Translations under genes and position numbers: made by a program
Notes under the pieces: generated by a model
The model's database searches: none
Told to the model about the DNA's origin: nothing
The model's input: only the letters and a program-made list of their open reading frames with translations
Shown here: positions 4,878 to 31,108 of the stretch, piece after piece
How positions within the stretch are numbered: position 1 is the first letter of the stretch
How the letters are laid out: the number at the start of each line of letters is the position of its first letter
Origin: Candidatus Hydrogenedens sp.
GTDB lineage: Bacteria > Hydrogenedentota > Hydrogenedentia > Hydrogenedentales > Hydrogenedentaceae
Length of the DNA: 64,000 bases
NCBI GenBank assembly: GCA_049968235.1
Contig: JBMFRC010000001.1
Location: 352,001-416,000 of the forward strand
Direction of reading: 5' to 3'

Positions 4878-5066
4878 AGATGAAAAAATAAAGTATACTC
4901 AACATAAAGAAGGAATATATACAAAAATACAAACAAGATTGTTTCTATGAAATATCACAAATTTTTTTTTTCGACATCCAAAAGTTGTTTATTATATGAT
5001 TAAAAACCCGGTATATTAAAATCTGAAATAAAAATGACAAAAAAACATCTATGAAGGAGTTGTATC

Positions 5067-6635
5067 TTGATTGAGTATGTAACATTACATTGGATAGATT
5101 TAACGATCATTGGCGTTTATATGGTAGGTTGTTTTGCATTAGGCACCTATACCAGTCGGTATATTGAAAATGCAGGAGATTTCTTTATTTCAGGTAAATC
5201 CCTCCCTTTCTGGGCGATTGCATTTTCTATCGTTGTGAGTGACATCGGAGCCTTAGACTTTGTTGGAGTTGCCGGAAATGCTTATAGATACGGAGTATCT
5301 GCTGCTAATTTTGACTGGTTAGGGTCCATGCCTGCTATGGTATTTGCCGCATTTATATTTGTTCCTTACTTCTGGCGTTCAGGGGTATTTACCATTCCCG
5401 AATTTTTAGGAAGAAGATATAACTCAGCGGTTCAGGTAATTAATGCTCTTATCTGGACCTCTGTAATGTTATTGTCTCTGATGATAATGCTCTGGACAAC
5501 AGCGGATGACCTTGTCTATACCATTTTAGGATATAAACCTATATATACAGTTTGGGTTATGGCGGGTGTTACAGGTTTCTATACCTTTGCAGGAGGATTA
5601 TCCGCCGTGGTAATGACCGATGTAGTTCAGTTAATAGTAATGTATGTTGGGGGGTTAGGTTTGCTGGCATTAAGTTTATGGGAAGTCGGTGGATGGAGTG
5701 TTATGAGAGCCAAAATAGAGGCACTCGGTCCGGAATATGCAAATCATTTTACAATTCTTCTGCCAAACAGCATAGAAAATCCATTCCCATGGACAGGAAT
5801 TGTCTTCGGTCTGGGTATTGTTCTTGCCATCGCTTATATGAGTGGAAATCAGGCAATTGTTCACAGAACATTGGGCGCCCGTTCTGAATGGGATGCCAAA
5901 GCAGGGATGCTCATGGGAGGTTTTTTGAAGTCTTTTATTCCATTAATGGTAGCTCTGCCCGGACTCTGCGCTATTGTTTATCTGCATGAAAGAAACATTA
6001 TATTGCATGAACAGGATAAAGTTATTCCCACTATGATACGGATGATGCTACCACCAGGATTACGAGGACTTATGTTTGCAGCTCTTTTTGCTGCATTAAT
6101 GTCCAGTATCTCCGGCACTCTTAGTTCTGCTTCCACCATATTTGTTACAGATATTTTCAATAAGCTCTGGACATTAGGAAGAAAAAAATCATTAGACGAA
6201 AAACAGGCTTTATATGTGGGACGAGGTTTTACCTTGTTTCTTATCATAAGTAGTGCCATCTTTGCGGAACAAATATCACGAGTTGGTGGAATTTATAATT
6301 TTATCCAAACTATTTTGTCTCTATTTCAAGGTCCCTCTCTGGCTATTCTATTGCTTGGAATTATGTGGAAACGAGCCACCGGTTGGGGAGGTCTGGTAGG
6401 CTTAATATCCGGCGTCTTTTTCTGTTTTATTTTATGGTGTGTTCCCAACCTATTCCCTGCAGAAGACCCATTCTTATTTGTTTCCATGTGGTCTTTTGTC
6501 TTCTCAATCATTGTTACTGTAATAGTTAGTCTTCTAACCCCGCCCGAACCCGAAGAAAAGATTCGGGGTTTGGTCTGGGGGTCTGTTGTTCAGGATATAA
6601 AAGCACAAAAAGCCTTAGCGGAAAGGATTCAATAA
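5067..6635 (+). CDS. Sodium:solute symporter family (SSF) transporter
   Basis: 522 aa, 13-14 TM helices. N-terminal GAxDFFxxGxSLPFWAIAFSIVxSDIGA and GRRYNS motifs, characteristic of the SSF (SLC5-like) family. TTG start with a GAAGGAG SD 8 nt upstream. Confidence 0.8.
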   Translation: MIEYVTLHWIDLTIIGVYMVGCFALGTYTSRYIENAGDFFISGKSLPFWAIAFSIVVSDIGALDFVGVAGNAYRYGVSAANFDWLGSMPAMVFAAFIFVPYFWRSGVFTIPEFLGRRYNSAVQVINALIWTSVMLLSLMIMLWTTADDLVYTILGYKPIYTVWVMAGVTGFYTFAGGLSAVVMTDVVQLIVMYVGGLGLLALSLWEVGGWSVMRAKIEALGPEYANHFTILLPNSIENPFPWTGIVFGLGIVLAIAYMSGNQAIVHRTLGARSEWDAKAGMLMGGFLKSFIPLMVALPGLCAIVYLHERNIILHEQDKVIPTMIRMMLPPGLRGLMFAALFAALMSSISGTLSSASTIFVTDIFNKLWTLGRKKSLDEKQALYVGRGFTLFLIISSAIFAEQISRVGGIYNFIQTILSLFQGPSLAILLLGIMWKRATGWGGLVGLISGVFFCFILWCVPNLFPAEDPFLFVSMWSFVFSIIVTVIVSLLTPPEPEEKIRGLVWGSVVQDIKAQKALAERIQ

Positions 6636-21130: not shown

Positions 21131-21820
21131 TCATTGGGATTTATATGATGATAAAAAATCCTGATAGGCTGTAAGGATTTGCTCCTCGTTCATAGGTGCA
21201 ATAATCATACGGACTGTAGTAGAAGCAGTCTGTCCTGTTTCCAATGTTTTACCAAACAGTGAGAAATACATGGAGTAATGTGTATTCCCTACTGGTGGAG
21301 TTAATATAGCAAAGCAGTTATCTTTGCGTGCCATCTGAACCACGGCAAGATTTGTCTCTTTATTGATGCGATAAATAATTGGCTCCTTAAAGGAGGGACG
21401 TATTGTCCAATCTACAGGATTAGGTGGAATAGTCCAGCGTCCATCACGAATAATCGAAATAGATTGTTCGTCCCTTGGGAAAGCCTGCCAATCTCCCGCA
21501 TCCACAGGAGTGGGAAGAAACTTATTGCCTTCCTCCGTTTGTGCATAAACGTAAGATTCTGGAAATTTATCGGTCAGGTAAGAGGAAAGAAATATTTCAA
21601 AATCCGGCAAATTTTGTTTTGCTTCAATTGAGATATGAAGGTCTAATGTGTAAGGATTTATCCATTGATATACAGAGGACAGGACAAAAGGATGTGCTTC
21701 GTCTGCTTCCCACTTTACTTTTATTGTTTTCTCATCTACCCATTCTGTTGAACTTTGCACACTCCGCATACTTTCTCCGAAGCGTTGGTTGGTTGCAAAT
21801 ACACGGTAAAAATTTAACAA
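21131..21820 (-). CDS. Hypothetical protein (229 aa), TTG start
   Basis: Long minus-strand ORF with no recognisable motif. The start codon at 21818-21820 is TTG. Confidence 0.4.
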   Translation of the reverse strand: MLNFYRVFATNQRFGESMRSVQSSTEWVDEKTIKVKWEADEAHPFVLSSVYQWINPYTLDLHISIEAKQNLPDFEIFLSSYLTDKFPESYVYAQTEEGNKFLPTPVDAGDWQAFPRDEQSISIIRDGRWTIPPNPVDWTIRPSFKEPIIYRINKETNLAVVQMARKDNCFAILTPPVGNTHYSMYFSLFGKTLETGQTASTTVRMIIAPMNEEQILTAYQDFLSSYKSQ

Positions 21821-21990
21821 GCCCGGTAGTGCAGACGGATTGGTAGAAATTTCAAGTTCCGGTGAAATAGAGGAGAACGGGACAAATCCGATAGACCTCC
21901 CTTCAAAACGGAATGTGCCTTTCAGTGCTCCTGTATCTATAAGATATTCACCTGGAGTTTTATCTGAAGCAATGAAATATGGTTTTTCTT

Positions 21991-23295
21991 CTATTGATTT
22001 TGTTGATGATATTTTTCTTTTCGTGCAGAGTTAAAAAGTTCTTTCATTTTGTAGTGAACATAGGGCTGTTTTGCCGCATCCTCTTTTCCTTTCGCGTGAG
22101 CGACCCATAATTCTAAATCTGTGGGACAATAGAGAACGCTGTGCAAGTTAACATTGACCATTGCCACTGCTTTGAGGATCTCTAATGCGATATTCTGGTC
22201 AATCTTGCCGTAATTCTCTTTTATTCGTGTAGCCATTCCTTTATAACGATGGTCATAGGAATTTGAACCATAGGGCATATTTGGTGCATTGGCACAGGTC
22301 TGTAAAGAGCGAATGGTTGGATCCATTGCTTCATCGGCACGCATAACGGCATTCTCAATGGGAATTGCATATTCGACAGTCTCGCGCGGGTCATTATCTG
22401 TAAATATTGCTACATGATGGGCACACGTTTCATAAACCAGGGCTCGGTTTTCATCTCCATCCGCAATCACATAGTTATAACCCACGGTATGCCGTGCTTC
22501 GAGAACAATTTCTGTTACCTGGTCCAAAGTAGATGCTTCTTCCAATATCTTGCGTAGAAGAAATTCAAGTGGGATACCATCAATGCGTCGGTCTTTATTC
22601 GTTGCTCCAATCTGTGCAATGGATACTTTGCGGTTATTCATGCCGGAGAGAACACCAATTGCACATGCATAACCGACAGAAATAAATGAATTCAATCCTT
22701 GTGGTTCATAACAGAAGGTAACCGCTGTATCCTGAATTCCTGCTTCCATAATCCAATCAAAATTTCTACCATGATACATCTTCCCATCAACAGTAGCTTT
22801 ACCCCACACGGCAAACGAACTACAACCCCGTTCTGTTATAACGGAAACAACATGAATACGACGCAAATCCTGAAGATTTACACCGGCACCATCAGCAATC
22901 CCCTCCAGTTCACGAGAATACCGTAATGGAATATGTGGCGAACATAATCTCCATGTAACATCCAATATCAACTTTGCTGCAAACTTTGGTAACCCTACTT
23001 CTTGCTTCGCCAGTTCTAATAATTCGTCAAATCGTGCAAGACTACGGTGAATAACATCTTTCAAGAGAACACCTCGTTGAAAACCCATCTCATACGGGGT
23101 CCCTTTCAAGTGAATAACCTTCGTCCCTTCAATTTCCTCCAAGAAAGCTTTTTGTATATCTACTGCTTCATGGGGACCGCGCGTAGGATAGAGCCAGAAG
23201 TAGAATCCAGCACCTAAAACCAGCACAACAAAAAGAATGGGAAGTATAAAACGAATTTTCTTTTTCATGGGAAATTCTCCAATAACAATTTTCAA
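21991..23295 (-). CDS. Peptidase C45 family Ntn-hydrolase (acyl-CoA:6-aminopenicillanic-acid acyltransferase-like), membrane anchored
   Basis: N-terminal TM/signal (the real start is probably MKKKIRF at 23268). GTPYEMGFQRG and the self-processing/nucleophile site ERG-CSSFAVWG are typical of C45. Confidence 0.6.
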   Translation of the reverse strand: MKIVIGEFPMKKKIRFILPILFVVLVLGAGFYFWLYPTRGPHEAVDIQKAFLEEIEGTKVIHLKGTPYEMGFQRGVLLKDVIHRSLARFDELLELAKQEVGLPKFAAKLILDVTWRLCSPHIPLRYSRELEGIADGAGVNLQDLRRIHVVSVITERGCSSFAVWGKATVDGKMYHGRNFDWIMEAGIQDTAVTFCYEPQGLNSFISVGYACAIGVLSGMNNRKVSIAQIGATNKDRRIDGIPLEFLLRKILEEASTLDQVTEIVLEARHTVGYNYVIADGDENRALVYETCAHHVAIFTDNDPRETVEYAIPIENAVMRADEAMDPTIRSLQTCANAPNMPYGSNSYDHRYKGMATRIKENYGKIDQNIALEILKAVAMVNVNLHSVLYCPTDLELWVAHAKGKEDAAKQPYVHYKMKELFNSARKEKYHQQNQ

Positions 23296-23421
23296 GTGAA
23301 ATTATGTTTATGTTATTTACATTAAATATTTGAATTCAAAAAATATACCAGGATTATTTATTATATCTATATCATCTGACTTTTATTTTCAAAAAAATTT
23401 TCATCGGGTTATTATCGTCTA

Positions 23422-26400
23422 TTATACATCCTTAATGATAGAAATAGGGATTGTTAGATTGTTAGCAATATCGGGAATATCATTTCTATATGTAAAAAGG
23501 ATTATCTGTTGTCCTTCTCCCAATGCTTTCAATGTTTCCAGAGATTGAATCAATTGGGGATAGTCATAAGACACAAAAGGGTCATCTAACAATAACGGAA
23601 TTGGTTCTTTGAGAAAATGAGGAATTTTCATAAGGGCGACACGCATAGCAAGATATGCCTGTTCCTGAACAGAGGGATTTGAAGATAATTCTTCCAGAGG
23701 TATGGGGTTCTCTGTTTGTGCAGGAATAACTTTCAATGTCAGGTCCTGCTCTACAAGCACACCTGTATATTTGTACTTCGTTAAATGTATCAGCAAACGA
23801 CTGACTTCATTTTGTAAAGGCAATGCAATTTTATGATACCGATATGTGGATAATTGCTGTAATACCGATATTGCTGATAATACACTCTCCTGTTCGTATC
23901 GAAGTATTCTCCATTGAGTTTCATAATAATATTTTTCTTCAGCAATTTCATTTAACGGTCGCAATTTGTTTGTCAATGTTTCCAACTCTGATTGTAGAAT
24001 CTGTATATCCTTTTGTATTTGTTCTACTTCGTTTTCTGTTTGCTCAATAAGTAGTTGCAATTGTTCTTCATCTTCGGCGGGGACTGATGGGACAAAATCT
24101 TGTGTTTGTTTTTCCAGTTCCTCTATTGTGCCATCATTCAGCAATTGTTGAAGTTGCAGTTCGGTTTGTTTAATTCGTGAAAAGATAGCCTGTGCTTCTT
24201 CGGCAAGGGCATATTTGTTTTTCCATTCGGAGATACTGCTTACTCCTGCCAGTTCTAATATCTCCTGAATCTGTTTCTGGTTTTGAGATAGTTCCTCATC
24301 CACTTTTTGCAGTTGTTGATTTAAATCCAATCGCTTTTTCCGAAGCTCGGATACCTTTGTTTTTAGCCCACAGTACATTTCTTCTGCACGATAATATGAA
24401 CGGAAAGTATCCTGTGTTAAAGTTTCCCCTGGTTGAAGCAGTCCGGATTGAACTAAGTCATGTTCTATCCGGCTAAGTATCTCTTTTTGAATTTTATTGT
24501 AAATATCCTTTGTATATTCTTCTTTTTTCGTTATAGTGTATGTTAATTGTTGATATTGGTTCCGGAGGTCCCAGAGCCTGCGGTGGTACATTCTTGCTTT
24601 TTCCTGCAATTCAAATACCTTTCGCCGATTTTGCTCTATTTTATCCTTATCTTCCAGAGATAGACCTGCTTGTTCAAAAAGATTTTGTATCTCTTGATAA
24701 AGGTCGTAGGTTCGGGTCTGGTTAATCGTAAATAGTTCCTCTGCTTTACGAACCTGTGTAGATAAATCTCCCTCGTTTTTTAACCAGGCACAGTATTCGT
24801 CATAAAGCCCCTGCAATTCGCGCACATGCTGTAAATTGGCTTTATTAAGTAGTGCTGTTATTGGATGCTTATCAATATATTCGAAGGTAACTATTTTCTG
24901 AATTTTTTCTTTCAATTGCTTCAGGAAAACATCGATTTCTTTCAGAGTTCGCTTATTATTGATATAAGAACTCACAAAATATAAAAAAGCCAATCCTACT
25001 GCACTGGCAAACCATAGAGATTCCTTTTTATGCATTGTTATAAACAGATAAATGAGTAAAATATCCAGCAAAAAACAAAGCGTCCCTAATACCAGGTCCA
25101 CAGGTTGTCGGGAACGAATTTGTAGTTTTAATACCTCTGCTTCTTCCAATTGTCTTTCTAATTCTTGCTGTTCTTCTTCCGGTTTATCTTTATATTTCAA
25201 ATAATCATCTACAAGCCCTGCAAAGTCATTTATATCATCAAATAATTCCCGATACGGTTGCGTTTGTTGTTGAACACGGGTATATTCTTTTCTCAGTTCA
25301 TTAAGTTGCGATTCGCTTTTATGTGTTTCCTTCAAAGAACTTTTATACATATCAATGGCAAAATCGGTTTTGGAGTAGAACATATCATCTTTTTGTATTA
25401 CCTCTGGAAGTTCCGAAACAATTTTTTCAACTTCCTGAATATGTTCGTTTACCTTCTCTCGTTGATTGTGTAGTTCTTTCAACACCTCCTCATTACTGTG
25501 AATATGTTTCAAATATTCCTCATATTTATCTTGATAATCCTTAATATAATCAATAGGGATAAAGGTAGAATGACGCAGTTCTAACTCAAGTTCATTGATT
25601 TCCCCAGAGATGTTCTCAATCTCATTTTGCAATTTCTGCTTTTGCATTTCCGCATGATTGATAGCCATCTCCGTTTGAATAACATATACATTCTGGTCAA
25701 CTGGAAAATTTCTAAAATTGGAGTATGAAAAGGAACGTCTAGTCAGTTCATTTAACTTGTCTCGTAAGGCTTTTGCATCGTTCTTTTTTCTCCAGAGCGT
25801 ATATTGACGGGCATATTGTAATTTATCTTGCAGTTCCTTATATTTCTGTTGAAGACTACTCAGTTTCTCCTTATGTTGTTTCAGAAATAATTTCTTCTCG
25901 CATATTCTTTCAAAACTTTCCTTTACCTGCTCATATTCCTCTGATAACCTTTCTATTTGTTCCGATATCAGGTTATAGGGGCGTTTATAGGTACGTTCTG
26001 TTCCGATGGATTGCAAATATTCCTGAAAATCGGTAATTATGGTATTTACAGATTGTTCCGTTGTCCCTGTATCTATCAAACACTGAAGATGTTCCTTTAC
26101 TCTGTTCCCGTGGGTAAAGGAATTCAAACTGTCTATTGTCTTCTGTGAAATTACAGACACTCCGGAGAACATTTCACGAGTCAAATCCAGATGTTCATTT
26201 ATAAAAGCAGGTTCTCCATTTGGATATACAGGAACTGTATCTGTTATATCATTTGCATCCATCCCTTCATATATTCTTAATGATGGTTCAGGTCCAAATA
26301 CTCGATGAAGATGTATCAGTTTCCCCGTATTCAGGCGATAAACAATATTTCCCCGATAATCCGAAGTATACCATGGTGTATATTTATAATAATTTTCAGA

Positions 26401-26580
26401 AAAGGATGCATTTTTCTTTTTGGAAGTTTTTTGCCCAAATAACATATCCAGCATAAACTGGAATAATGTATTTTTCCCATTCTCATCTCTGACAAAAATT
26501 ATCTGGAACCCCTTCTCAAATTCAAGGGGAATCTTTTGTAGTTTCCCGAAACCATAGATATGTCCCTTTATAAATTCCAT
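23422..26580 (-). CDS. SbcC/Rad50-like SMC-type coiled-coil protein of the SbcE/YhaN type, with an internal TM hairpin and degenerate ATPase motifs
   Basis: 1052 aa. N-terminus IYGFGKL...IIFVRDENGKNTLFQFMLDMLFG sits at the P-loop position. Long heptad-rich coiled-coil arms. A hydrophobic hairpin (LVLGTLCFLLDILLIYLFI / LWFASAVGLAFLYFV) lies mid-protein. C-terminal LSSNP (signature position), LLLDDPF (Walker B) and ILFTY (H-loop position). Confidence 0.65.
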   Translation of the reverse strand: MEFIKGHIYGFGKLQKIPLEFEKGFQIIFVRDENGKNTLFQFMLDMLFGQKTSKKKNASFSENYYKYTPWYTSDYRGNIVYRLNTGKLIHLHRVFGPEPSLRIYEGMDANDITDTVPVYPNGEPAFINEHLDLTREMFSGVSVISQKTIDSLNSFTHGNRVKEHLQCLIDTGTTEQSVNTIITDFQEYLQSIGTERTYKRPYNLISEQIERLSEEYEQVKESFERICEKKLFLKQHKEKLSSLQQKYKELQDKLQYARQYTLWRKKNDAKALRDKLNELTRRSFSYSNFRNFPVDQNVYVIQTEMAINHAEMQKQKLQNEIENISGEINELELELRHSTFIPIDYIKDYQDKYEEYLKHIHSNEEVLKELHNQREKVNEHIQEVEKIVSELPEVIQKDDMFYSKTDFAIDMYKSSLKETHKSESQLNELRKEYTRVQQQTQPYRELFDDINDFAGLVDDYLKYKDKPEEEQQELERQLEEAEVLKLQIRSRQPVDLVLGTLCFLLDILLIYLFITMHKKESLWFASAVGLAFLYFVSSYINNKRTLKEIDVFLKQLKEKIQKIVTFEYIDKHPITALLNKANLQHVRELQGLYDEYCAWLKNEGDLSTQVRKAEELFTINQTRTYDLYQEIQNLFEQAGLSLEDKDKIEQNRRKVFELQEKARMYHRRLWDLRNQYQQLTYTITKKEEYTKDIYNKIQKEILSRIEHDLVQSGLLQPGETLTQDTFRSYYRAEEMYCGLKTKVSELRKKRLDLNQQLQKVDEELSQNQKQIQEILELAGVSSISEWKNKYALAEEAQAIFSRIKQTELQLQQLLNDGTIEELEKQTQDFVPSVPAEDEEQLQLLIEQTENEVEQIQKDIQILQSELETLTNKLRPLNEIAEEKYYYETQWRILRYEQESVLSAISVLQQLSTYRYHKIALPLQNEVSRLLIHLTKYKYTGVLVEQDLTLKVIPAQTENPIPLEELSSNPSVQEQAYLAMRVALMKIPHFLKEPIPLLLDDPFVSYDYPQLIQSLETLKALGEGQQIILFTYRNDIPDIANNLTIPISIIKDV

Positions 26581-27740
26581 TCCGGGGGAACCTCACATGT
26601 TTCAACGGTAGGAATTTTTAGATTTGCTCCTCCAGCAATTCTTGCGGTTAAATGTCGGACTCGTTTTGCAATACTGACAGCGGAGGTATTCGGTGCACAT
26701 TTTTGTTGTTCCGTTACCTGCTTAAAAAATTCAGATAGAACGGTAATCTCTCGCAAATCTTCTGCATTTTCAAATCCTTCTATTTCTCCATCAAAACTCC
26801 ATGTAATAAATAGATTTTCTTCCTGAATAGATATCATTGTTTCCGGGATGCCATTTAGAAGGGAAGGAGAAATTGTTCCACTGAAACGGAGATGAACAAC
26901 ACAGGGTTTTTGCAAATTTGTCAATTCATTTCGTAACTTCGTGTGAAGTCCATCTTCATTTGTAAACAAAGACATATCTATATTGATAAGAGCATAAAAA
27001 TTTTTCTGTAAAGACATATGTTCTACATGGGAAACTTTCCATTGATTATCATCCGATTGAAAGCGAATACCTAAAACCCCAAAAGGAGGAGTATCATCCA
27101 TACTTATAGGGTCGGGAATACCACAACAACACGCCGTCAATTGCGAAGTATTGTAAAATTGTTTGAAACTGTGTCCTTTCCCTACCCCGATATATGAGAT
27201 AACATCCGGGACCTTCTCAAACCATCTTGACAATTCCCTTTTATCGTTAAACATAGGCAATTCATAAGATAGAAGAATATGATTCCTGCCATCATAGCCA
27301 GTCGGTAAATTAAGTTCCGCAAAATCCCCTACCTTCCTATTATCTCCTGCTATTGCATAAACAACAATCGGGGTCTTATTCCCTTCCCACCTGTTTGTTG
27401 TTTCGGAATTCATTACTATTACATTTTCGGGAAAAGTCTCTAATATGTAGGGAGAATATTTTGTGATAGGGTCTGATTCGCCGGGAATAATAATGACTGG
27501 AACAGGTTTAATTGCTTCACATCGCTCAAACAGGAATTGAAGGGTTTGTTCCGTTACATATTCTGCATCCAGCAAATTACCGGTTATGAATAAGGCATCT
27601 GCTTTATACTCAAATACTTTACTGACAATTGCATCGAGTAATTCCCTCTGTCTTCTTCTTCGTTCTTGACCATAGTGTAGGTTTAAGGAGGAAAAAAAGG
27701 GCTTGTCTAAGTATACATTTGCGGTATGTAAGATGAACAT
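26568..27740 (-). CDS. SbcD/Mre11-like calcineurin-fold phosphoesterase homolog (SbcF/YhaO-like) with substituted metal ligands
   Basis: MFILHTANVYLD aligns position-for-position to SbcD MRILHTSDWHLG. ADALFITGNLLD aligns to the GDxxD motif. IIIPGESD aligns to GNHD. Overlaps the SbcE-like gene by 13 nt. Confidence 0.6.
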   Translation of the reverse strand: MFILHTANVYLDKPFFSSLNLHYGQERRRRQRELLDAIVSKVFEYKADALFITGNLLDAEYVTEQTLQFLFERCEAIKPVPVIIIPGESDPITKYSPYILETFPENVIVMNSETTNRWEGNKTPIVVYAIAGDNRKVGDFAELNLPTGYDGRNHILLSYELPMFNDKRELSRWFEKVPDVISYIGVGKGHSFKQFYNTSQLTACCCGIPDPISMDDTPPFGVLGIRFQSDDNQWKVSHVEHMSLQKNFYALINIDMSLFTNEDGLHTKLRNELTNLQKPCVVHLRFSGTISPSLLNGIPETMISIQEENLFITWSFDGEIEGFENAEDLREITVLSEFFKQVTEQQKCAPNTSAVSIAKRVRHLTARIAGGANLKIPTVETCEVPPEWNL

Positions 27741-27765
27741 TTTCGTTTAACCTGTAACAGTTTGA

Positions 27766-28716
27766 TTAAGAATATATTATATCAATTTGCGGTTCCTGCT
27801 TTGCTATGGCATCAGTAAAACCCCTATATCGCCAATATCGGAATACTCGGCGATACATTCGGAGAAGTAATTTAGAATCTTCTGGAAGTTTTAAGCAAAA
27901 ACGGTGGTAGTAAGGAATAAGCAGGGCATTGATAATTCGTGTAGTATAAGGAAAATAAAGTTTATAATTAACGACGATATGATAGTCATTAGGAAACAAT
28001 CGCAGGTAACAGCCCATTGAATAACCCCGACGGTAATGATATCTGCACATATCCAGATATGAACTTCCTTTCCAAAGCCAACAAAGAGCCTGATTGTCAA
28101 TATGAAGTTTACAACCTACTTGCGAGAGCCTTTTTACCAATTCCACTTCTGCGAATTCCGGGAAATAAAATGATTTGTTAAATGTTCCACTTTGAAGAAT
28201 AAGGTCACGAGGGATACTCATGTTATAGAGAGAGAAATGGGAAGGAGTTATTTGTGTAATTTCCTCCATTGAAGGTGGTTCATCCTCTGGCAAGAACCAG
28301 GGTGTTATGCTTTTTGAAGAGAGTCGCGGATGCAAAAGTAACGCGCCTCCGATACAGGCTTTCCCCTCATATGCGTATTGGAGCTGGACATGCCTTTGGA
28401 TCCAACTATTACTGGGCAATACCTCCGGTTGACTGCACAATACCCACTTTCCTTTCGCCTCGTGCAATGCTAAGTCCCATGCTTGTATCATTGACTCTCC
28501 CCCATGTGGAATATAACGAACAATCAACGGAGACCCTTTTGACAAAGAAGCAACTGTCTTTCGCGTTTCTTCTGAGGAATTCGTTTCAACAATAATCCAC
28601 TCAAATTGTGCTAAAGGATAATCCTGATGTTCCAGATGAAAAAACCATGGGGATAAACACCACGACAAATTATTTCCTACTAACAGCACGCTTGCATGGA
28701 TTTCATTCGTTGACAT
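27766..28716 (-). CDS. GT-A fold (GT2-like) glycosyltransferase homolog lacking DXD and other acidic motifs
   Basis: ASVLLVGNN..FEWIIVETNSSEE..VRYIPHGGESMIQAWDLALHEAKGKWVLCSQPEVLP follows the GT2 N-terminal pattern (IIPTYN..EIIVVDDGSTD..xRYIxxxNxGxxxARNxGxxxAxGEYIxFLDxDD). The DD and DXD positions are ET and SQPE. 25 nt upstream of the SbcF-like gene. Confidence 0.4.
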   Translation of the reverse strand: MSTNEIHASVLLVGNNLSWCLSPWFFHLEHQDYPLAQFEWIIVETNSSEETRKTVASLSKGSPLIVRYIPHGGESMIQAWDLALHEAKGKWVLCSQPEVLPSNSWIQRHVQLQYAYEGKACIGGALLLHPRLSSKSITPWFLPEDEPPSMEEITQITPSHFSLYNMSIPRDLILQSGTFNKSFYFPEFAEVELVKRLSQVGCKLHIDNQALCWLWKGSSYLDMCRYHYRRGYSMGCYLRLFPNDYHIVVNYKLYFPYTTRIINALLIPYYHRFCLKLPEDSKLLLRMYRRVFRYWRYRGFTDAIAKQEPQIDIIYS

Positions 28717-28825
28717 TCCGATACTTTCTTCCCTTTTTGTTATTATAAAATATTAACATGATAATATACTGAAAAGGGAATTTTTATTTCTATATATAGT
28801 TTTCCAGAGATAAGGCTCATCATAT

Positions 28826-31108
28826 ATGTCGCAAATAGCAAGTAAGGTTTCGGAGTTCCGACGCTTCCCTTTTTGGGGAACATTACTCGGGGGTATTTTC
28901 CTGTTACTTTTGATACGTATTTATTGGGACCCTATGCTGGCAGCCAGTTTAGGTAAAAGCGATAAAGAAGATATATGGGCAAACAAACAATATTCCGTTT
29001 GGGGTCCTATATGGAAATATGGGTTTGACCGTATCGGGAAGGGAGAAATTCCGCACTGGAATCCGTATCAACTTTGTGGACAACCCTACCTTGTGGACAT
29101 ACGTACATCTTTGTTTCAACCCTTGCATATACTATTTTGGCGAATGGACTTTGCACATGCCTATCAATGGTATATTTTCCTTTCCATGTCCCTTTTAGGT
29201 ATCGGTTTTTTAATATGGGGTAGAATTTTAGAGATTCCTTATCCTGCTTTAATACCCGGACTTGTATCTGTGGTATTTTCGGGACCTGGAATATGTGTTC
29301 AAATGTCGTTACCTTTGTTAAGTGGTTCTGTGTGGCTAATTTTTCTACTAAGTGGTATGGTATATTTCTTTGAAAACCATACACCACGCAGTTTTCTCAT
29401 CTTATTGTTTATATGGACCGCATTGATACTATCTGGAAGTATTGAATGCATATTTGCAGGTCTCCTTATGCTCATCCTTTTCCCTTTTATCTTTCGCAGT
29501 TTCCCGACACTTTCCATAGAAAGGAAATCTTTATCGGTAATTTTCAAAATTATAGTTGTTTTGATACTGGGAATAATGGTAAGTGCATTTGCATGGTTTC
29601 CTTTTATATCATGGCAGATATATACAGATGTACACTGGAGCCAATTTCTTAGTTTTCCTTTATCGGCTCATTTTCCCGAAACATTCTCTCTCGCTTTTTC
29701 TCAAATCTTTCTCCCTATATGGGCATGGGACCTTCCAAAATTACCCGTTTTATATCCCGGATTAATATGTTTCGTATTTATTTTTCCCGCATTTTTTGAC
29801 CGTGAACTTCGTTCTATCGTATGGTTTCATGGGCTAATCTTGTTATTTTTCTTCCTTCTATTTTTTATAAACCTTAACCTGGCACGAATACTTCAACAGG
29901 GAATGTTAATTCTTGTTGCAATTTCTTTCTCAACATTGGCAGGGATAGGCTTTCACCGATTGCTATTAAAAGGTCGGGATTTAAGTTCTCCATATGTATG
30001 GGTTTCGGGTATCTTTGTTTTTTTATTGCTATTAGCCCTCATTTTAATCGCTAATCCATGGATAAAGGGTGTATCCATTTTATTACTCTTTCTCCTTATC
30101 CCTGCAACAATCATCCGTATACCCAAAATAAATTCTATCCTTTGCATCTTAATCGCTCTGTTAAGTTTCATCGAATTGTATTATTTACTTCGTCCTTTTC
30201 TACCTGAAAGTTATATCCCCGTTATTGAAAAAAAAGATGTTTATTCCGAATTCGTCAGACAGCTCCGCTATCAAACAGGCACAGGAAGAGGTCTGATTGT
30301 CCCGGAATCGAACTCAATACTCTGGTCGGAAAACCTCGGGATGTATTATCACTGGCAATTGGTGAATGGAACAGAACTACCCACAGATAAATATGCACAA
30401 TTATGGATGAAATCCCTTTCAAATCAAACACAGGAAAAAACAGAACTATTAACAAATCCGTTAACAACAATCAGTGGTGTTCAGTGGGCATTTACTACAA
30501 ATATGTCAATAGATAACGATAAGGGGAAAAATTTAAAAACCTGGCGAAAAATGGAGCAAATCTACTTTGTTGATATTTATGAAAATACCCAACCTATACC
30601 GCGATGTTTCTGGGTACCCCACTACCGAAAAGTCTCTTCTATGGAAGAGGTCTTAAATATTTTGACACATAGTAACTTCTCTCCATTTAAAGAATGCGTG
30701 ATACAGTCAGATGTTCCGATTTCCTACGACAAAAAAACTGCTGATATACTTCCCTTAACACCGGAACAGGATGCAGATTCTTCCGCAAAGGTAGTAACTA
30801 CCAATATCCAGGAGGAAAACTCTGAATATATCTCTATACAGATAAAAGCACCTAAGGAAGGTTTCTTAGTGCTTTTAGACACATACAACCCGGGCTGGAA
30901 AGCATTTGTCGATGGAGAACTTACTGAAATTTTTAGAACAAACGGTATATTTAGAGGTGTTCCCATACCGGGAGGGGTACATCAGGTTGTATTCAAATAT
31001 ACAAGCCCTGGCTGGGACGCAGGGAGAATAATTACATTCGTGGCTATTCTTTTAACTCTATCAACACTACTCATCGAAAAAGTTTTCAATAAAAGCCAAA
31101 CCGCATAA
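28826..31108 (+). CDS. YfhO-family polytopic membrane protein (GT-C-type glycosyltransferase-like)
   Basis: 760 aa with many TM helices. The N-terminal loop IPHWNPYQLCGQPYLVDIRTSLFQP resembles the YfhO hallmark (IPLWNPY..G.P..AN.Q.A.FYP). C-terminal soluble domain. Confidence 0.6.
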   Translation: MSQIASKVSEFRRFPFWGTLLGGIFLLLLIRIYWDPMLAASLGKSDKEDIWANKQYSVWGPIWKYGFDRIGKGEIPHWNPYQLCGQPYLVDIRTSLFQPLHILFWRMDFAHAYQWYIFLSMSLLGIGFLIWGRILEIPYPALIPGLVSVVFSGPGICVQMSLPLLSGSVWLIFLLSGMVYFFENHTPRSFLILLFIWTALILSGSIECIFAGLLMLILFPFIFRSFPTLSIERKSLSVIFKIIVVLILGIMVSAFAWFPFISWQIYTDVHWSQFLSFPLSAHFPETFSLAFSQIFLPIWAWDLPKLPVLYPGLICFVFIFPAFFDRELRSIVWFHGLILLFFFLLFFINLNLARILQQGMLILVAISFSTLAGIGFHRLLLKGRDLSSPYVWVSGIFVFLLLLALILIANPWIKGVSILLLFLLIPATIIRIPKINSILCILIALLSFIELYYLLRPFLPESYIPVIEKKDVYSEFVRQLRYQTGTGRGLIVPESNSILWSENLGMYYHWQLVNGTELPTDKYAQLWMKSLSNQTQEKTELLTNPLTTISGVQWAFTTNMSIDNDKGKNLKTWRKMEQIYFVDIYENTQPIPRCFWVPHYRKVSSMEEVLNILTHSNFSPFKECVIQSDVPISYDKKTADILPLTPEQDADSSAKVVTTNIQEENSEYISIQIKAPKEGFLVLLDTYNPGWKAFVDGELTEIFRTNGIFRGVPIPGGVHQVVFKYTSPGWDAGRIITFVAILLTLSTLLIEKVFNKSQTA

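What the first reader, a model, noticed from the sequence alone, without database searches (positions are those of the whole stretch)
26568..27740. Mre11/SbcD-like phosphoesterase homolog with the metal-ligand residues replaced (ILHTANVYLD vs ILHTSDWHLG)
The first 12 residues (nt 27705-27740) align position-for-position with the E. coli SbcD N-terminus. However, the Asp and His of motif I are Asn and Tyr. Motif II GDxxD is GNLLD. Motif III GNHD is GESD. Such a protein could still fold and bind its Rad50-like partner, but should not coordinate the di-metal centre. A 13-nt overlap with the SbcE-like gene implies translational coupling and stoichiometric complex formation.
Basis: partly seen in the sequence, partly recalled or inferred. 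Interest (0 to 1): 0.65.

Follow-up and report, generated by a model that had tools for sequence, protein, structure and literature searches.

The report
Catalytically dead Mre11–Rad50-like gene pair
This Candidatus Hydrogenedens gene encodes a full-length Mre11/SbcD-type nuclease look-alike that has lost almost every metal-binding residue, sits next to a membrane-anchored Rad50-like partner whose ATP-binding motifs have also decayed, and is nevertheless kept by selection, so a DNA-repair machine seems to have become a non-enzymatic scaffold.

Summary
ORF 26568..27740(-) encodes a 390-aa protein that is a true full-length Mre11/SbcD-fold homologue. Only 1 of its 8 canonical catalytic or metal-ligand positions survives: DxH is NxY, GD is GN, GNHD is GESD, the motif IV His is Tyr, and GHxH is GKGH.

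The substitutions are fixed in all 12 orthologues (46-100% identity), all apparently from Candidatus Hydrogenedens. More distant relatives in the same gene arrangement keep a perfect site.

The gene overlaps a 1052-aa SMC/Rad50-like gene of the YhaN/SbcE type by 13 nt. That partner has a central hydrophobic hairpin in place of a zinc hook.

Both genes are under purifying selection (dN/dS about 0.13-0.15), so they are not pseudogenes. Related Hydrogenedentota loci suggest stepwise loss, first the nuclease site and later, at least twice, the ATPase motifs.

The best reading is a pseudo-enzyme pair retained as a membrane-anchored structural complex. What it now does is unknown. A GT2-like gene is linked in seven of the twelve related loci examined, including one lineage with a nearly intact nuclease site. 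I rate it a new variant of a known kind, of moderate interest.

The parts
26568..27740 (-). Gene for a 390-aa catalytically degenerate Mre11/SbcD-fold (SbcF/YhaO-like) protein
   Evidence: ORF. Foldseek top 35 PDB hits are all Mre11/SbcD. BLASTP 6e-25 to an intact relative. 12 orthologues aligned. dN/dS 0.148 against L005.
27705..27728 (-). Remnant of phosphoesterase motif I (HTANVYLD, where canonical proteins have HT[AS]DxHL[GD]). N8 is invariant and position 10 is Y or F. It is part of the clade-specific signature N-x-[YF]-L-D-[KR]-P-F.
27567..27581 (-). Remnant of motif II (GNLLD). The bridging Asp is replaced by an invariant Asn55.
27471..27482 (-). Remnant of motif III (GESD for GNHD). 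The Asn position is variable (D/T/E/N/S/A) and the His position is S/T/A. D90 is invariant.
27258..27275 (-). Motif IV region (LLSYEL). The His position is Tyr159; it is still His in two of the twelve orthologues.
27171..27182 (-). Remnant of motif V (GKGH for GHxH). The first His position is K/E/N and the second is H/Q/N/Y.
26632..26765 (-). C-terminal helical region (about residues 326-369, including TVLSEFFKQ at 26718..26744). It is the presumed binding region for the coiled coil of the Rad50-like partner.
   Evidence: Helices in the model, at low confidence. F338 is invariant across the family including E. coli SbcD. Conservation is 0.70-0.72. The binding role is inferred from Mre11/SbcD, not tested.
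26568..26580 (-). 13-nt overlap between the stop of the Mre11-like gene and the ATG of the Rad50-like gene
   Evidence: The same overlap occurs in L005-L009.
23422..26580 (-). Gene for a 1052-aa SMC/Rad50-like (SbcE/YhaN-type) partner
   Evidence: Pfam AAA_27 E=0.0025. Orthologues pass AAA_27. Family profile against Pfu Rad50 heads gives E=3e-5. The AlphaFold model matches Smc5/6, condensin, Rad50 and MukB. dN/dS is 0.134.
26467..26496 (-). Decayed Walker A (FVRDENGKNT, where intact relatives have [FYL]G[LP]NE[SQ]GKTT)
24961..25095 (-). Two hydrophobic segments (residues 496-516 and 522-540) at the middle of the coiled coil. They form a predicted membrane hairpin where Rad50/SbcC has a CxxC zinc hook.
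   Evidence: Hydropathy scan and absence of CxxC. Continuous helices 467-516 and 519-564 in the model. The hairpin is conserved in L001, L002, L012, L014 and L016.
23659..23688 (-). Decayed ABC signature motif (LSSNPSVQEQ, where intact relatives have LSxGTxxQ)
23575..23595 (-). Walker B-like LLLDDPF. It is retained here but varies in sister sequences of the decayed clade.
27766..28716 (-). GT2-like 316-aa gene, 25 nt upstream on the same strand. It is a conserved neighbour of the pair and possibly in the same operon.
   Evidence: Pfam GT2 E=1.2e-5. Present in L005-L009. A homologue (3e-22) also precedes a near-intact pair in L017-L019.

Best explanation
The 390-aa protein is a pseudo-enzyme. 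It keeps the Mre11/SbcD fold: a phosphoesterase core, a capping domain and C-terminal partner-binding helices. It cannot build the two-metal nuclease centre, because 7 of the 8 canonical positions (Asp, His, Asp, Asn, His, His, His) are replaced.

It is made together with a membrane-anchored, Rad50-like coiled-coil protein of the YhaN/SbcE type, through a 13-nt overlap. It most likely still caps that protein's head domains, as Mre11 caps Rad50.

In this Hydrogenedens sub-clade the partner has also lost a usable P-loop and signature motif. ATP-driven head engagement is therefore probably gone as well. The pair would then act as a static structural complex with its heads in the cytoplasm and its coiled-coil apex in the membrane. 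I favour a tether or scaffold, possibly for DNA at the membrane, over any DNA-processing role.

What is shown:
- homology and fold;
- loss of motifs, and their conservation state across orthologues;
- purifying selection;
- conserved gene pairing;
- the apparent order of loss across lineages.

What is inferred:
- absence of metal binding and of nuclease and ATPase activity;
- continued physical interaction of the two proteins;
- membrane insertion;
- the tether/scaffold role.
For: **Fold and homology.**
- Foldseek's top 35 PDB hits are all Mre11/SbcD, over about 350-430 alignment columns.
- BLASTP to the intact L002 protein gives 6e-25.
- The orthologue profile finds 859 relatives at E<=1e-10.

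**Dead nuclease site.**
- Of 163 family sequences, 95 have all 8 canonical residues. The window clade has 0-2.
- N8 and N55 are invariant, while the other former ligand positions vary freely.

**Partner.**
- Walker A is intact (G[LP]NE[SQ]GKTT) in P0021-P0025. In the window and P0013-P0020 it is VRDENGKNT, VKEEQDRNS or similar.
- The signature motif LSxGT is lost in the same sequences.
- The family profile aligns with the signature, Walker B and D-loop of Pfu Rad50.
- The model has an SMC/Rad50 fold.

**Selection.** For window against L005, dN/dS is 0.148 (Mre11-like) and 0.134 (Rad50-like). For L008 against L009 it is 0.126 and 0.119. The neighbouring GT2-like gene gives 0.068-0.139. Lengths are conserved at 387-390 aa and 1049-1059 aa.

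**Series across lineages.**
- L002: intact nuclease site, intact ATPase motifs.
- L017: nearly intact nuclease site (DH, GD, GNKD, H, GHIH), intact ATPase motifs.
- L001, L008, L009, L014, L016: dead nuclease site, intact ATPase motifs.
- Window, L005-L007 and, independently, L012: both dead.

**Membrane anchor and origin.** There are two hydrophobic segments and no CxxC. G+C content equals that of the window, so the genes are native.
Against: - No biochemical data exist.
- The window's own Walker A still contains G-K (ENGKNT), so residual nucleotide binding by this particular protein is not excluded.
- N8, N55, D58, E60 and D90 are invariant, and the segments around former motifs I and II are the most conserved parts of the protein (0.87-0.88). 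That could mean the old pocket still binds something, such as one metal, a phosphate or a ligand, and is more than a structural core.
- The interaction between the two proteins was not modelled.
- dS for the closest pairs is 0.8-1.0, which is partly saturated.
- The neighbour-joining tree used to order the losses is crude.
Confidence: 0.7

Rival explanations
1. The dead pair has been recruited to a membrane or cell-envelope process, working with the neighbouring GT2-like protein and the YfhO-like (GT-C type) membrane protein. It would no longer have a DNA-related role.
For: - The block of a YfhO-like gene (divergent) followed by GT2-like, Mre11-like and Rad50-like genes is conserved in all six Hydrogenedens loci, while the outer flanks differ.
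- A distant Hydrogenedentota locus, L012, whose pair is fully decayed, also has a homologous YfhO-like gene two genes away (BLASTP 4e-37).
- A GT2-like homologue precedes the pair in L017-L019.
- The Rad50-like protein is predicted to be membrane-anchored.
Against: - The GT2 linkage also exists where the nuclease site and ATPase motifs are (nearly) intact (L017). It is therefore not specific to the dead state and may be plain synteny within the phylum.
- L001, L014 and L016 carry dead nuclease homologues but have no YfhO-like or GT2-like neighbour.
- I know of no precedent for an Mre11-Rad50-like complex acting in glycan synthesis.
Confidence: 0.12
2. The pair acts as a decoy or regulator of an active paralogous Mre11-Rad50-type complex (SbcCD or an intact SbcEF-like pair) encoded elsewhere in the genome. 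For example, it could form mixed, inactive assemblies or compete for DNA ends.
For: - Pseudo-enzymes often regulate their active paralogues (general knowledge).
- L002 carries a second phosphoesterase gene next to a gene of about 1000 aa, 7 kb away from its intact pair. Genomes in this family can therefore hold two such pairs.
Against: - No paralogue of either gene lies in the 64-kb window. The rest of the genome could not be searched.
- The membrane hairpin and the dedicated, overlapping gene pair suggest a self-contained complex.
Confidence: 0.1
3. The protein is still an enzyme. It would use a remodelled site (N8, N55, D58, E60, D90, H5, perhaps with one metal) for a different hydrolytic or binding reaction.
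For: - These residues are invariant, and the former active-site segments are the most conserved parts of the protein.
- A new conserved signature, N-x-[YF]-L-D-[KR]-P-F, replaces D-x-H-L-D.
Against: - Five former ligand or catalytic positions vary freely among close orthologues.
- Tyr10 alternates with Phe, so its hydroxyl is not required.
- No compensating invariant His appears in the phosphoesterase core: of the invariant or nearly invariant His, H5 and H154 also align with His in intact relatives, and H241 and H283 lie outside the core.
- Related lineages lose the same site in different ways, which is typical of relaxed constraint rather than redesign.
Confidence: 0.06
4. The gene is a decaying pseudogene or an annotation artefact.
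For: - Catalytic motifs are lost in two adjacent genes.
- NCBI annotates the protein as 'hypothetical protein'.
Against: - Intact ORFs of constant length are found in 12 or more lineages, down to 46% identity.
- dN/dS is 0.13-0.15.
- The overlap with the downstream gene is conserved.
Confidence: 0.02

Closest known systems
Bacillus subtilis SbcF (YhaO) / SbcE (YhaN) (Krishnamurthy et al. 2009, PMC2811018)
   Same: - The gene order matches: an Mre11/SbcD-like phosphoesterase gene lies directly upstream of an SMC-like gene of about 1000 aa.
- The SMC-like protein has a deviant Walker A, no CxxC hook, and a hydrophobic (insoluble) central domain between two long heptad-repeat regions.
- Orthologues of the window's partner match Pfam AAA_27, which from my own knowledge is the YhaN-type domain.
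   Different: - SbcF and SbcE are treated as an active nuclease/ATPase pair acting in double-strand-break repair and competence. Here the nuclease site is gone, and in this sub-clade the ATP-binding motifs are gone as well.
- The organism belongs to a different phylum (Hydrogenedentota).
- Direct sequence comparison with the B. subtilis proteins was not possible with these tools.
E. coli SbcCD / archaeal and eukaryotic Mre11-Rad50
   Same: - The fold of both subunits matches.
- The N-terminal strand aligns position for position with SbcD.
- The genes are adjacent and overlapping. E. coli sbcD and sbcC overlap by 4 nt.
   Different: - Scores are far below the NCBIfam SbcD cut-offs (18.8 against 480 bits).
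- There is no zinc hook. A membrane hairpin takes its place.
- The metal ligands, the P-loop and the signature motif are lost.
Naturally inactivated calcineurin-like phosphoesterase folds used as scaffolds: B subunits of eukaryotic DNA polymerases alpha/delta/epsilon (Pfam DNA_pol_E_B) and retromer Vps29
   Same: - The phosphoesterase fold is retained without a working dimetal site, and it serves as a protein-binding subunit (my own knowledge).
- Weak Pfam DNA_pol_E_B hits appear for the window protein (E=0.098) and for P0012 (E=0.0012).
- Vps29 appears as a weak structural match.
   Different: These belong to different branches of the superfamily. None is an Mre11/SbcD-type protein with a capping domain, and none pairs with a Rad50-like partner.
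RecC of RecBCD (dead helicase and nuclease domains kept as scaffold)
   Same: The concept is the same: a DNA-repair machine subunit that keeps the fold of an enzyme but has lost its catalytic residues (my own knowledge).
   Different: The folds are unrelated. In RecBCD the other subunits remain active, whereas here both subunits look inactive.

Membership tests
Mre11/SbcD-type calcineurin-like metallophosphoesterases | Phosphoesterase core plus Mre11-type capping domain fold | tested here: met
   AlphaFold model (pLDDT 70.3). The top 35 Foldseek PDB hits are all Mre11/SbcD, E down to 4.7e-11, with TM-scores normalised by target length of 0.40-0.66.
Mre11/SbcD-type calcineurin-like metallophosphoesterases | Significant sequence similarity to family members or models | tested here: inconclusive
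   Curated models are not passed: Pfam Metallophos 16.6 bits against a 21.5-bit cut-off, and NCBIfam sbcd_Staph 18.8 against 480. Homology is clear through intermediates: BLASTP 6e-25 to the intact L002 protein, which itself hits Metallophos at 2.5e-13, and the profile search.
Mre11/SbcD-type calcineurin-like metallophosphoesterases | Five phosphoesterase motifs carrying the metal ligands and catalytic His (DxH, GD, GNH[DE], H, GHxH) | tested here: not met
   The window has NxY, GN, GESD, Y and GKGH, which is 1 of 8 canonical residues. The same holds in all 12 orthologues.
Mre11/SbcD-type calcineurin-like metallophosphoesterases | Mn2+-dependent nuclease activity | not testable with these tools
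   This needs purified protein.
Mre11/SbcD-type calcineurin-like metallophosphoesterases | Adjacent gene for a Rad50/SbcC-type coiled-coil ABC ATPase | tested here: met
   A 1052-aa gene overlaps by 13 nt. Its Rad50-like head is shown by the profile against PDB and its SMC/Rad50 fold.
SbcE/SbcF (YhaN/YhaO) pair | Partner carries the YhaN-type N-terminal domain (Pfam AAA_27) | tested here: inconclusive
   The window protein scores 17.9 bits against a 22-bit cut-off. Orthologues P0023, P0024 and P0025 pass with 34-53 bits. The shortfall coincides with the decayed Walker A.
SbcE/SbcF (YhaN/YhaO) pair | Hydrophobic central domain in place of a CxxC zinc hook, between two long coiled-coil arms | tested here: met
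   Two hydrophobic segments at 496-516 and 522-540, no CxxC, and long helices on both sides. This matches the description in PMC2811018.
SbcE/SbcF (YhaN/YhaO) pair | Direct sequence similarity to B. subtilis YhaO and YhaN | not tested
   The B. subtilis sequences were not obtainable.
SbcE/SbcF (YhaN/YhaO) pair | Recognisable Walker A, Walker B and signature motifs in the SMC-like subunit | tested here: not met
   Walker A is VRDENGKNT and the signature is SSNPSVQEQ. Only Walker B (LLLDDPF) is kept. The motifs are intact in P0021-P0025.
Lamassu (LmuB SMC-like protein plus LmuA effector) anti-phage system | An LmuB-type SMC protein together with an LmuA effector, and usually an LmuC gene | tested here: not met
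   PADLOC LmuB models hit the 1052-aa protein (1.2e-13), mainly across the coiled coil and C-terminal head. The Mre11-like protein hits no PADLOC model. The neighbours are a GT2-like gene and a C45/AAT-like gene. G+C content equals that of the window, and the locus is syntenic across species.

The most novel reading that the evidence does not exclude
Within the candidate phylum Hydrogenedentota, a membrane-anchored Mre11-Rad50-like machine has lost its nuclease centre, and at least twice its ATPase motifs too. It has been kept under selection as an inert coiled-coil scaffold with a new job at the membrane. That job could be linked to the conserved neighbouring GT2-like and YfhO-like envelope-glycosylation proteins. 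This would be the first natural case of a fully non-enzymatic Mre11-Rad50-type complex.
Probability: 0.12. Interest if true: 0.8.

Novelty: new variant of a known kind. Interest (0 to 1): 0.5.

Why it matters
Mre11-Rad50-type complexes are universal DNA-end-processing machines. How much of their function is structural (tethering, signalling) and how much is catalytic is usually probed with engineered nuclease-dead or ATPase-dead mutants.

Here nature appears to have run that experiment in steps. Related lineages carry intact/intact, dead-nuclease/live-ATPase and dead/dead versions of the same membrane-anchored pair, and all are under purifying selection.

This gives a ready-made comparative series for asking what such a complex does without catalysis. 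It also bears on the barely characterised SbcE/SbcF (YhaN/YhaO) family and its membrane hairpin.

On the practical side, automatic pipelines label relatives of this protein inconsistently. IMG calls the degenerate P0141 'DNA repair protein SbcD/Mre11' and P0143 'DNA repair exonuclease SbcCD nuclease subunit', while NCBI calls the window protein 'hypothetical protein'. For this clade, 'nuclease' would be a wrong functional call.

Tried and rejected
- **Promoter and terminator scan of 21800-29000.** Counts were no higher than in shuffled sequence, so the scan says nothing about operon structure.
- **PDB sequence search with the 1052-aa protein alone.** It returned nothing relevant. Only the family profile reached Rad50.
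- **PADLOC.** LmuB and JetC hits to the partner were rejected as evidence for a defence system; see the membership test.
- **Literature.** Searches for SbcE/SbcF, YhaN/PF13514, 'Mre11 pseudonuclease' and inactivated calcineurin-like phosphoesterases found only the 2009 SbcE paper. No description of a naturally dead Mre11/SbcD homologue turned up. The library is limited to open-access text.
- **Supplementary alignment of the SbcE paper.** It is not held.
- **The 732-aa gene next to the dead homologue in L014.** I tested it as a possible YfhO relative and it is not one (E=0.71).
- **PDB sequence search with the GT2-like protein.** No hits.
- **Adding the hits to the family alignment with --keeplength.** This lost motifs IV and V to gaps. 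Only motifs I-III of those sequences are usable, and I draw no frequency estimate from them.
- **3D check for alternative metal ligands.** Not possible, because model coordinates are not exposed to scripts.
- **Paralogues in the window.** None were found.
Full report
**1. Observation**

The ORF at 26568..27740 on the minus strand is real. It encodes 390 aa starting MFILHTANVYLDKPFF. An identical protein is in NCBI as a 'hypothetical protein' of a Candidatus Hydrogenedens sp. MAG. The G+C content of the gene (0.378) equals that of the window (0.38), so the gene is native.

I fetched E. coli K-12 sbcD (L011). In the alignment, ILHTANVYLD lies exactly on ILHTSDWHLG, GNLLD on GDVFD and GESD on GNHD. 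The stop codon ends at 26568 and the next gene's ATG is at 26580, which gives the 13-nt overlap.

**2. Is it really an Mre11/SbcD homologue?**

Single-sequence library searches are only suggestive:
- Pfam Metallophos gives E=0.011, below its gathering score.
- NCBIfam SbcD models score far below their cut-offs.
- T. maritima Mre11 gives E about 0.01 over residues 2-91.

Three independent lines make the homology secure.
- (a) Twelve orthologues at 46-100% identity were found among 5.8 billion proteins. Their profile finds 2589 proteins at E<=1e-3 and 859 at E<=1e-10 among 1.84 billion representatives. These are about 380 aa long and match over nearly the full length.
- (b) BLASTP against one such relative with a perfect active site (L002 2951-4108; Pfam Metallophos 2.5e-13) gives E=6e-25 over 378 residues.
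- (c) An AlphaFold model (pLDDT 70, pTM 0.64) has Mre11/SbcD structures as its best 35 PDB matches, E down to 4.7e-11. The matches span both the nuclease and the capping domain.

**3. State of the catalytic site**

I scored the eight canonical positions: motif I Asp and His, motif II Asp, motif III Asn and His, motif IV His, and the two motif V His. Of 163 family sequences, 95 have all eight. The window protein has one.

Within the 12 orthologues:
- N8 and N55, which replace the two Asp, are invariant.
- Position 10 is Tyr or Phe.
- The motif III Asn position is D/T/E/N/S/A, and the motif III His position is S/T/A.
- The motif IV His position is Tyr in ten and His in two.
- The motif V His positions are K/E/N and H/Q/N/Y.

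Free variation at normally invariant ligand positions is the signature of a site that is no longer used.

No compensating set of invariant His residues exists. The invariant or nearly invariant His in the clade are H5, H154, H241 and H283. H5 and H154 also align with His in the intact relatives, and H241 and H283 lie beyond the phosphoesterase core.

On the other hand, the segments around former motifs I and II are the most conserved parts of the protein (0.87-0.88 column identity). A clade-specific signature, N-x-[YF]-L-D-[KR]-P-F, has replaced D-x-H-L-D. I take this as conservation of the structural core or of a new binding surface.

**4. The partner**

The overlapping 1052-aa gene (23422..26580, minus strand) is an SMC/Rad50-like protein.
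- It gives a weak AAA_27 hit, while orthologues give good AAA_27, AAA_23 and SMC_N hits.
- A family profile aligns with the signature motif, Walker B and D-loop of P. furiosus Rad50 heads (E=3e-5).
- An AlphaFold model matches Smc5/6, condensin, Rad50, MukB and JetC. Its head alone matches Rad50 crystal structures.
- It has two hydrophobic segments (496-516 and 522-540) in the middle of the coiled coil and no CxxC hook.

This is the architecture published for B. subtilis SbcE (YhaN). Its gene lies directly downstream of the SbcD-like yhaO (SbcF), and its hydrophobic central domain is insoluble (PMC2811018).

The new point is that the ATPase motifs have decayed too. Relatives P0021-P0025 have G[LP]NE[SQ]GKTT and LSxGTxxQ. 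The window and P0013-P0020 have VRDENGKNT, FRDDNEKNT, VKEEQDRNS and similar, and SSNPSVQEQ, PQNEVILEQ and similar. Even Walker B varies only inside this decayed group.

**5. Not pseudogenes**

Nei-Gojobori dN/dS for the closest pairs:

| Pair | Mre11-like | Rad50-like | Neighbouring GT2-like |
|---|---|---|---|
| window vs Ca. H. terephthalaticus (L005) | 0.148 | 0.134 | 0.068 |
| L008 vs L009 | 0.126 | 0.119 | 0.139 |

dS is 0.8-1.0, so the values are approximate, but they are clearly far below 1. ORF lengths are constant across lineages, and the 13-nt overlap is conserved in L005-L009.

**6. Evolutionary series**

| Locus or loci | Nuclease site | ATPase motifs |
|---|---|---|
| L002 | intact | intact |
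| L017-L019 (Hydrogenedentes) | DH / GD / GNKD / H / GHIH, only the motif III His lost | intact |
| L001, L008, L009, L014, L016 | dead | Walker A, signature and Walker B intact |
| window, L005, L006, L007 | dead | decayed |
| L012 (separate Hydrogenedentes lineage) | dead | no recognisable Walker A or Walker B; hydrophobic hairpin still present |

In every lineage I sampled, ATPase decay occurs only where the nuclease site is already dead, and it appears to have happened at least twice.

Nearly all degenerate representatives share the motif II Asp->Asn change. In a crude neighbour-joining tree the window clade plus the L001 protein and P0134 is monophyletic and uniformly dead. Its neighbours mix 7-of-8 forms with other dead forms.

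All hits in this part of the family that carry an organism name are from Hydrogenedentes/Hydrogenedentota.

**7. Context**

In all six Hydrogenedens loci the block is a YfhO-like gene (divergent) followed by GT2-like, Mre11-like and Rad50-like genes. The sequence outside the block differs.

A GT2-like homologue (3e-22) also precedes the nearly intact pair in L017-L019. A YfhO-like homologue (4e-37) lies near the fully decayed pair in L012. Other dead-homologue loci lack both.

The linkage is therefore old within the phylum and is not specific to the dead state. It may reflect function or only synteny.

**8. Interpretation**

The best-supported reading is a pseudo-enzyme pair: an Mre11-fold cap on the heads of a membrane-anchored Rad50-like coiled coil, retained for a structural role. 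The order of losses implies two things. A nuclease-independent but ATP-dependent function existed first, and it is still present in L001, L008, L009, L014 and L016. In the window's sub-clade even ATP turnover then became dispensable.

By analogy with the known nuclease-independent tethering roles of Mre11-Rad50, and with the polar and competence-associated localisation of SbcE, I favour a tether or scaffold at the membrane. This last step is inference.

The rival readings are an envelope role together with GT2/YfhO, a decoy for an active paralogue, a remodelled active site, and a pseudogene. They are weighed in the structured fields.

**9. Comparison and novelty**

The pair works like, and is architecturally the same as, SbcF/SbcE, and more distantly SbcD/SbcC. 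It fails the defining catalytic-motif tests of both families, so it should be filed as a catalytically degenerate variant and not as a nuclease/ATPase.

Inactivated phosphoesterase folds used as scaffolds are known, for example the polymerase B subunits and Vps29. Dead subunits in repair machines are also known, for example RecC. I found no report of a naturally dead Mre11/SbcD-type protein, or of a doubly dead Mre11-Rad50-type pair, in the searchable literature.

My verdict is a new variant of a known kind, of moderate interest.

Noticed in passing
window 27766..28716 (-); L005-L009 at about 5021-5975: The conserved GT2-like 316-aa protein upstream of the pair may itself be degenerate. Where GT2 enzymes normally carry the DxD motif it reads GKWVLCS[QKMS]P[EN], and L008/L009 have CSSPN. 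Where GT2 enzymes have VDDGS it reads VETNS or VEASP. The homologue in L017 still has LFLDT at the first of these places. I read this by eye from alignments. Pfam matches only residues 34-115, and there is no PDB sequence hit.
   Followed up: partly
window 28826..31108 (+); L012 1481-3718 (-): A YfhO-like 760-aa membrane protein lies divergently next to the GT2-like/Mre11-like/Rad50-like block in all six Hydrogenedens loci. A full-length homologue (BLASTP 4e-37) lies two genes from the fully decayed pair in a distant Hydrogenedentota locus.
   Followed up: partly
window 21131..21820 (-) and 21991..23295 (-): The C45/AAT-like gene downstream of the pair appears split in the window. The 434-aa and 229-aa ORFs together correspond to one 712-aa protein in Ca. 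H. terephthalaticus (L005 10472-12610). The 229-aa ORF matches residues 484-712 of that protein at 80% identity. This could be a frameshift, a stop codon or an assembly error in the gap of about 170 nt at 21821-21990.
   Followed up: partly
L008 (CAZJTZ010000029.1): The record is titled 'uncultured Nitrospirales bacterium'. Its GT2-like, Mre11-like and Rad50-like genes are 77-83% identical in protein to those of L009, a Candidatus Hydrogenedens sp.. The bin is probably mislabelled or the contig mis-binned.
   Followed up: no
L002 11425-13269 (-): The genome that carries the fully intact pair has a second Metallophos gene (302 aa) directly next to another gene of about 1000 aa, roughly 7 kb away. 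This may be a second Mre11-Rad50-type pair.
   Followed up: no
Family representatives P0136, P0137, P0138, P0140, P0151, P0160, P0161, P0181, P0183 and others: A sizeable group of close relatives keeps all seven metal ligands but has lost only the motif III His (GN[RKCNW]D). This may be an intermediate state with altered nuclease chemistry.
   Followed up: no
window 26560..26826 (+): An 88-aa antisense ORF overlaps the junction of the two genes. Nothing supports it as a gene.
   Followed up: no
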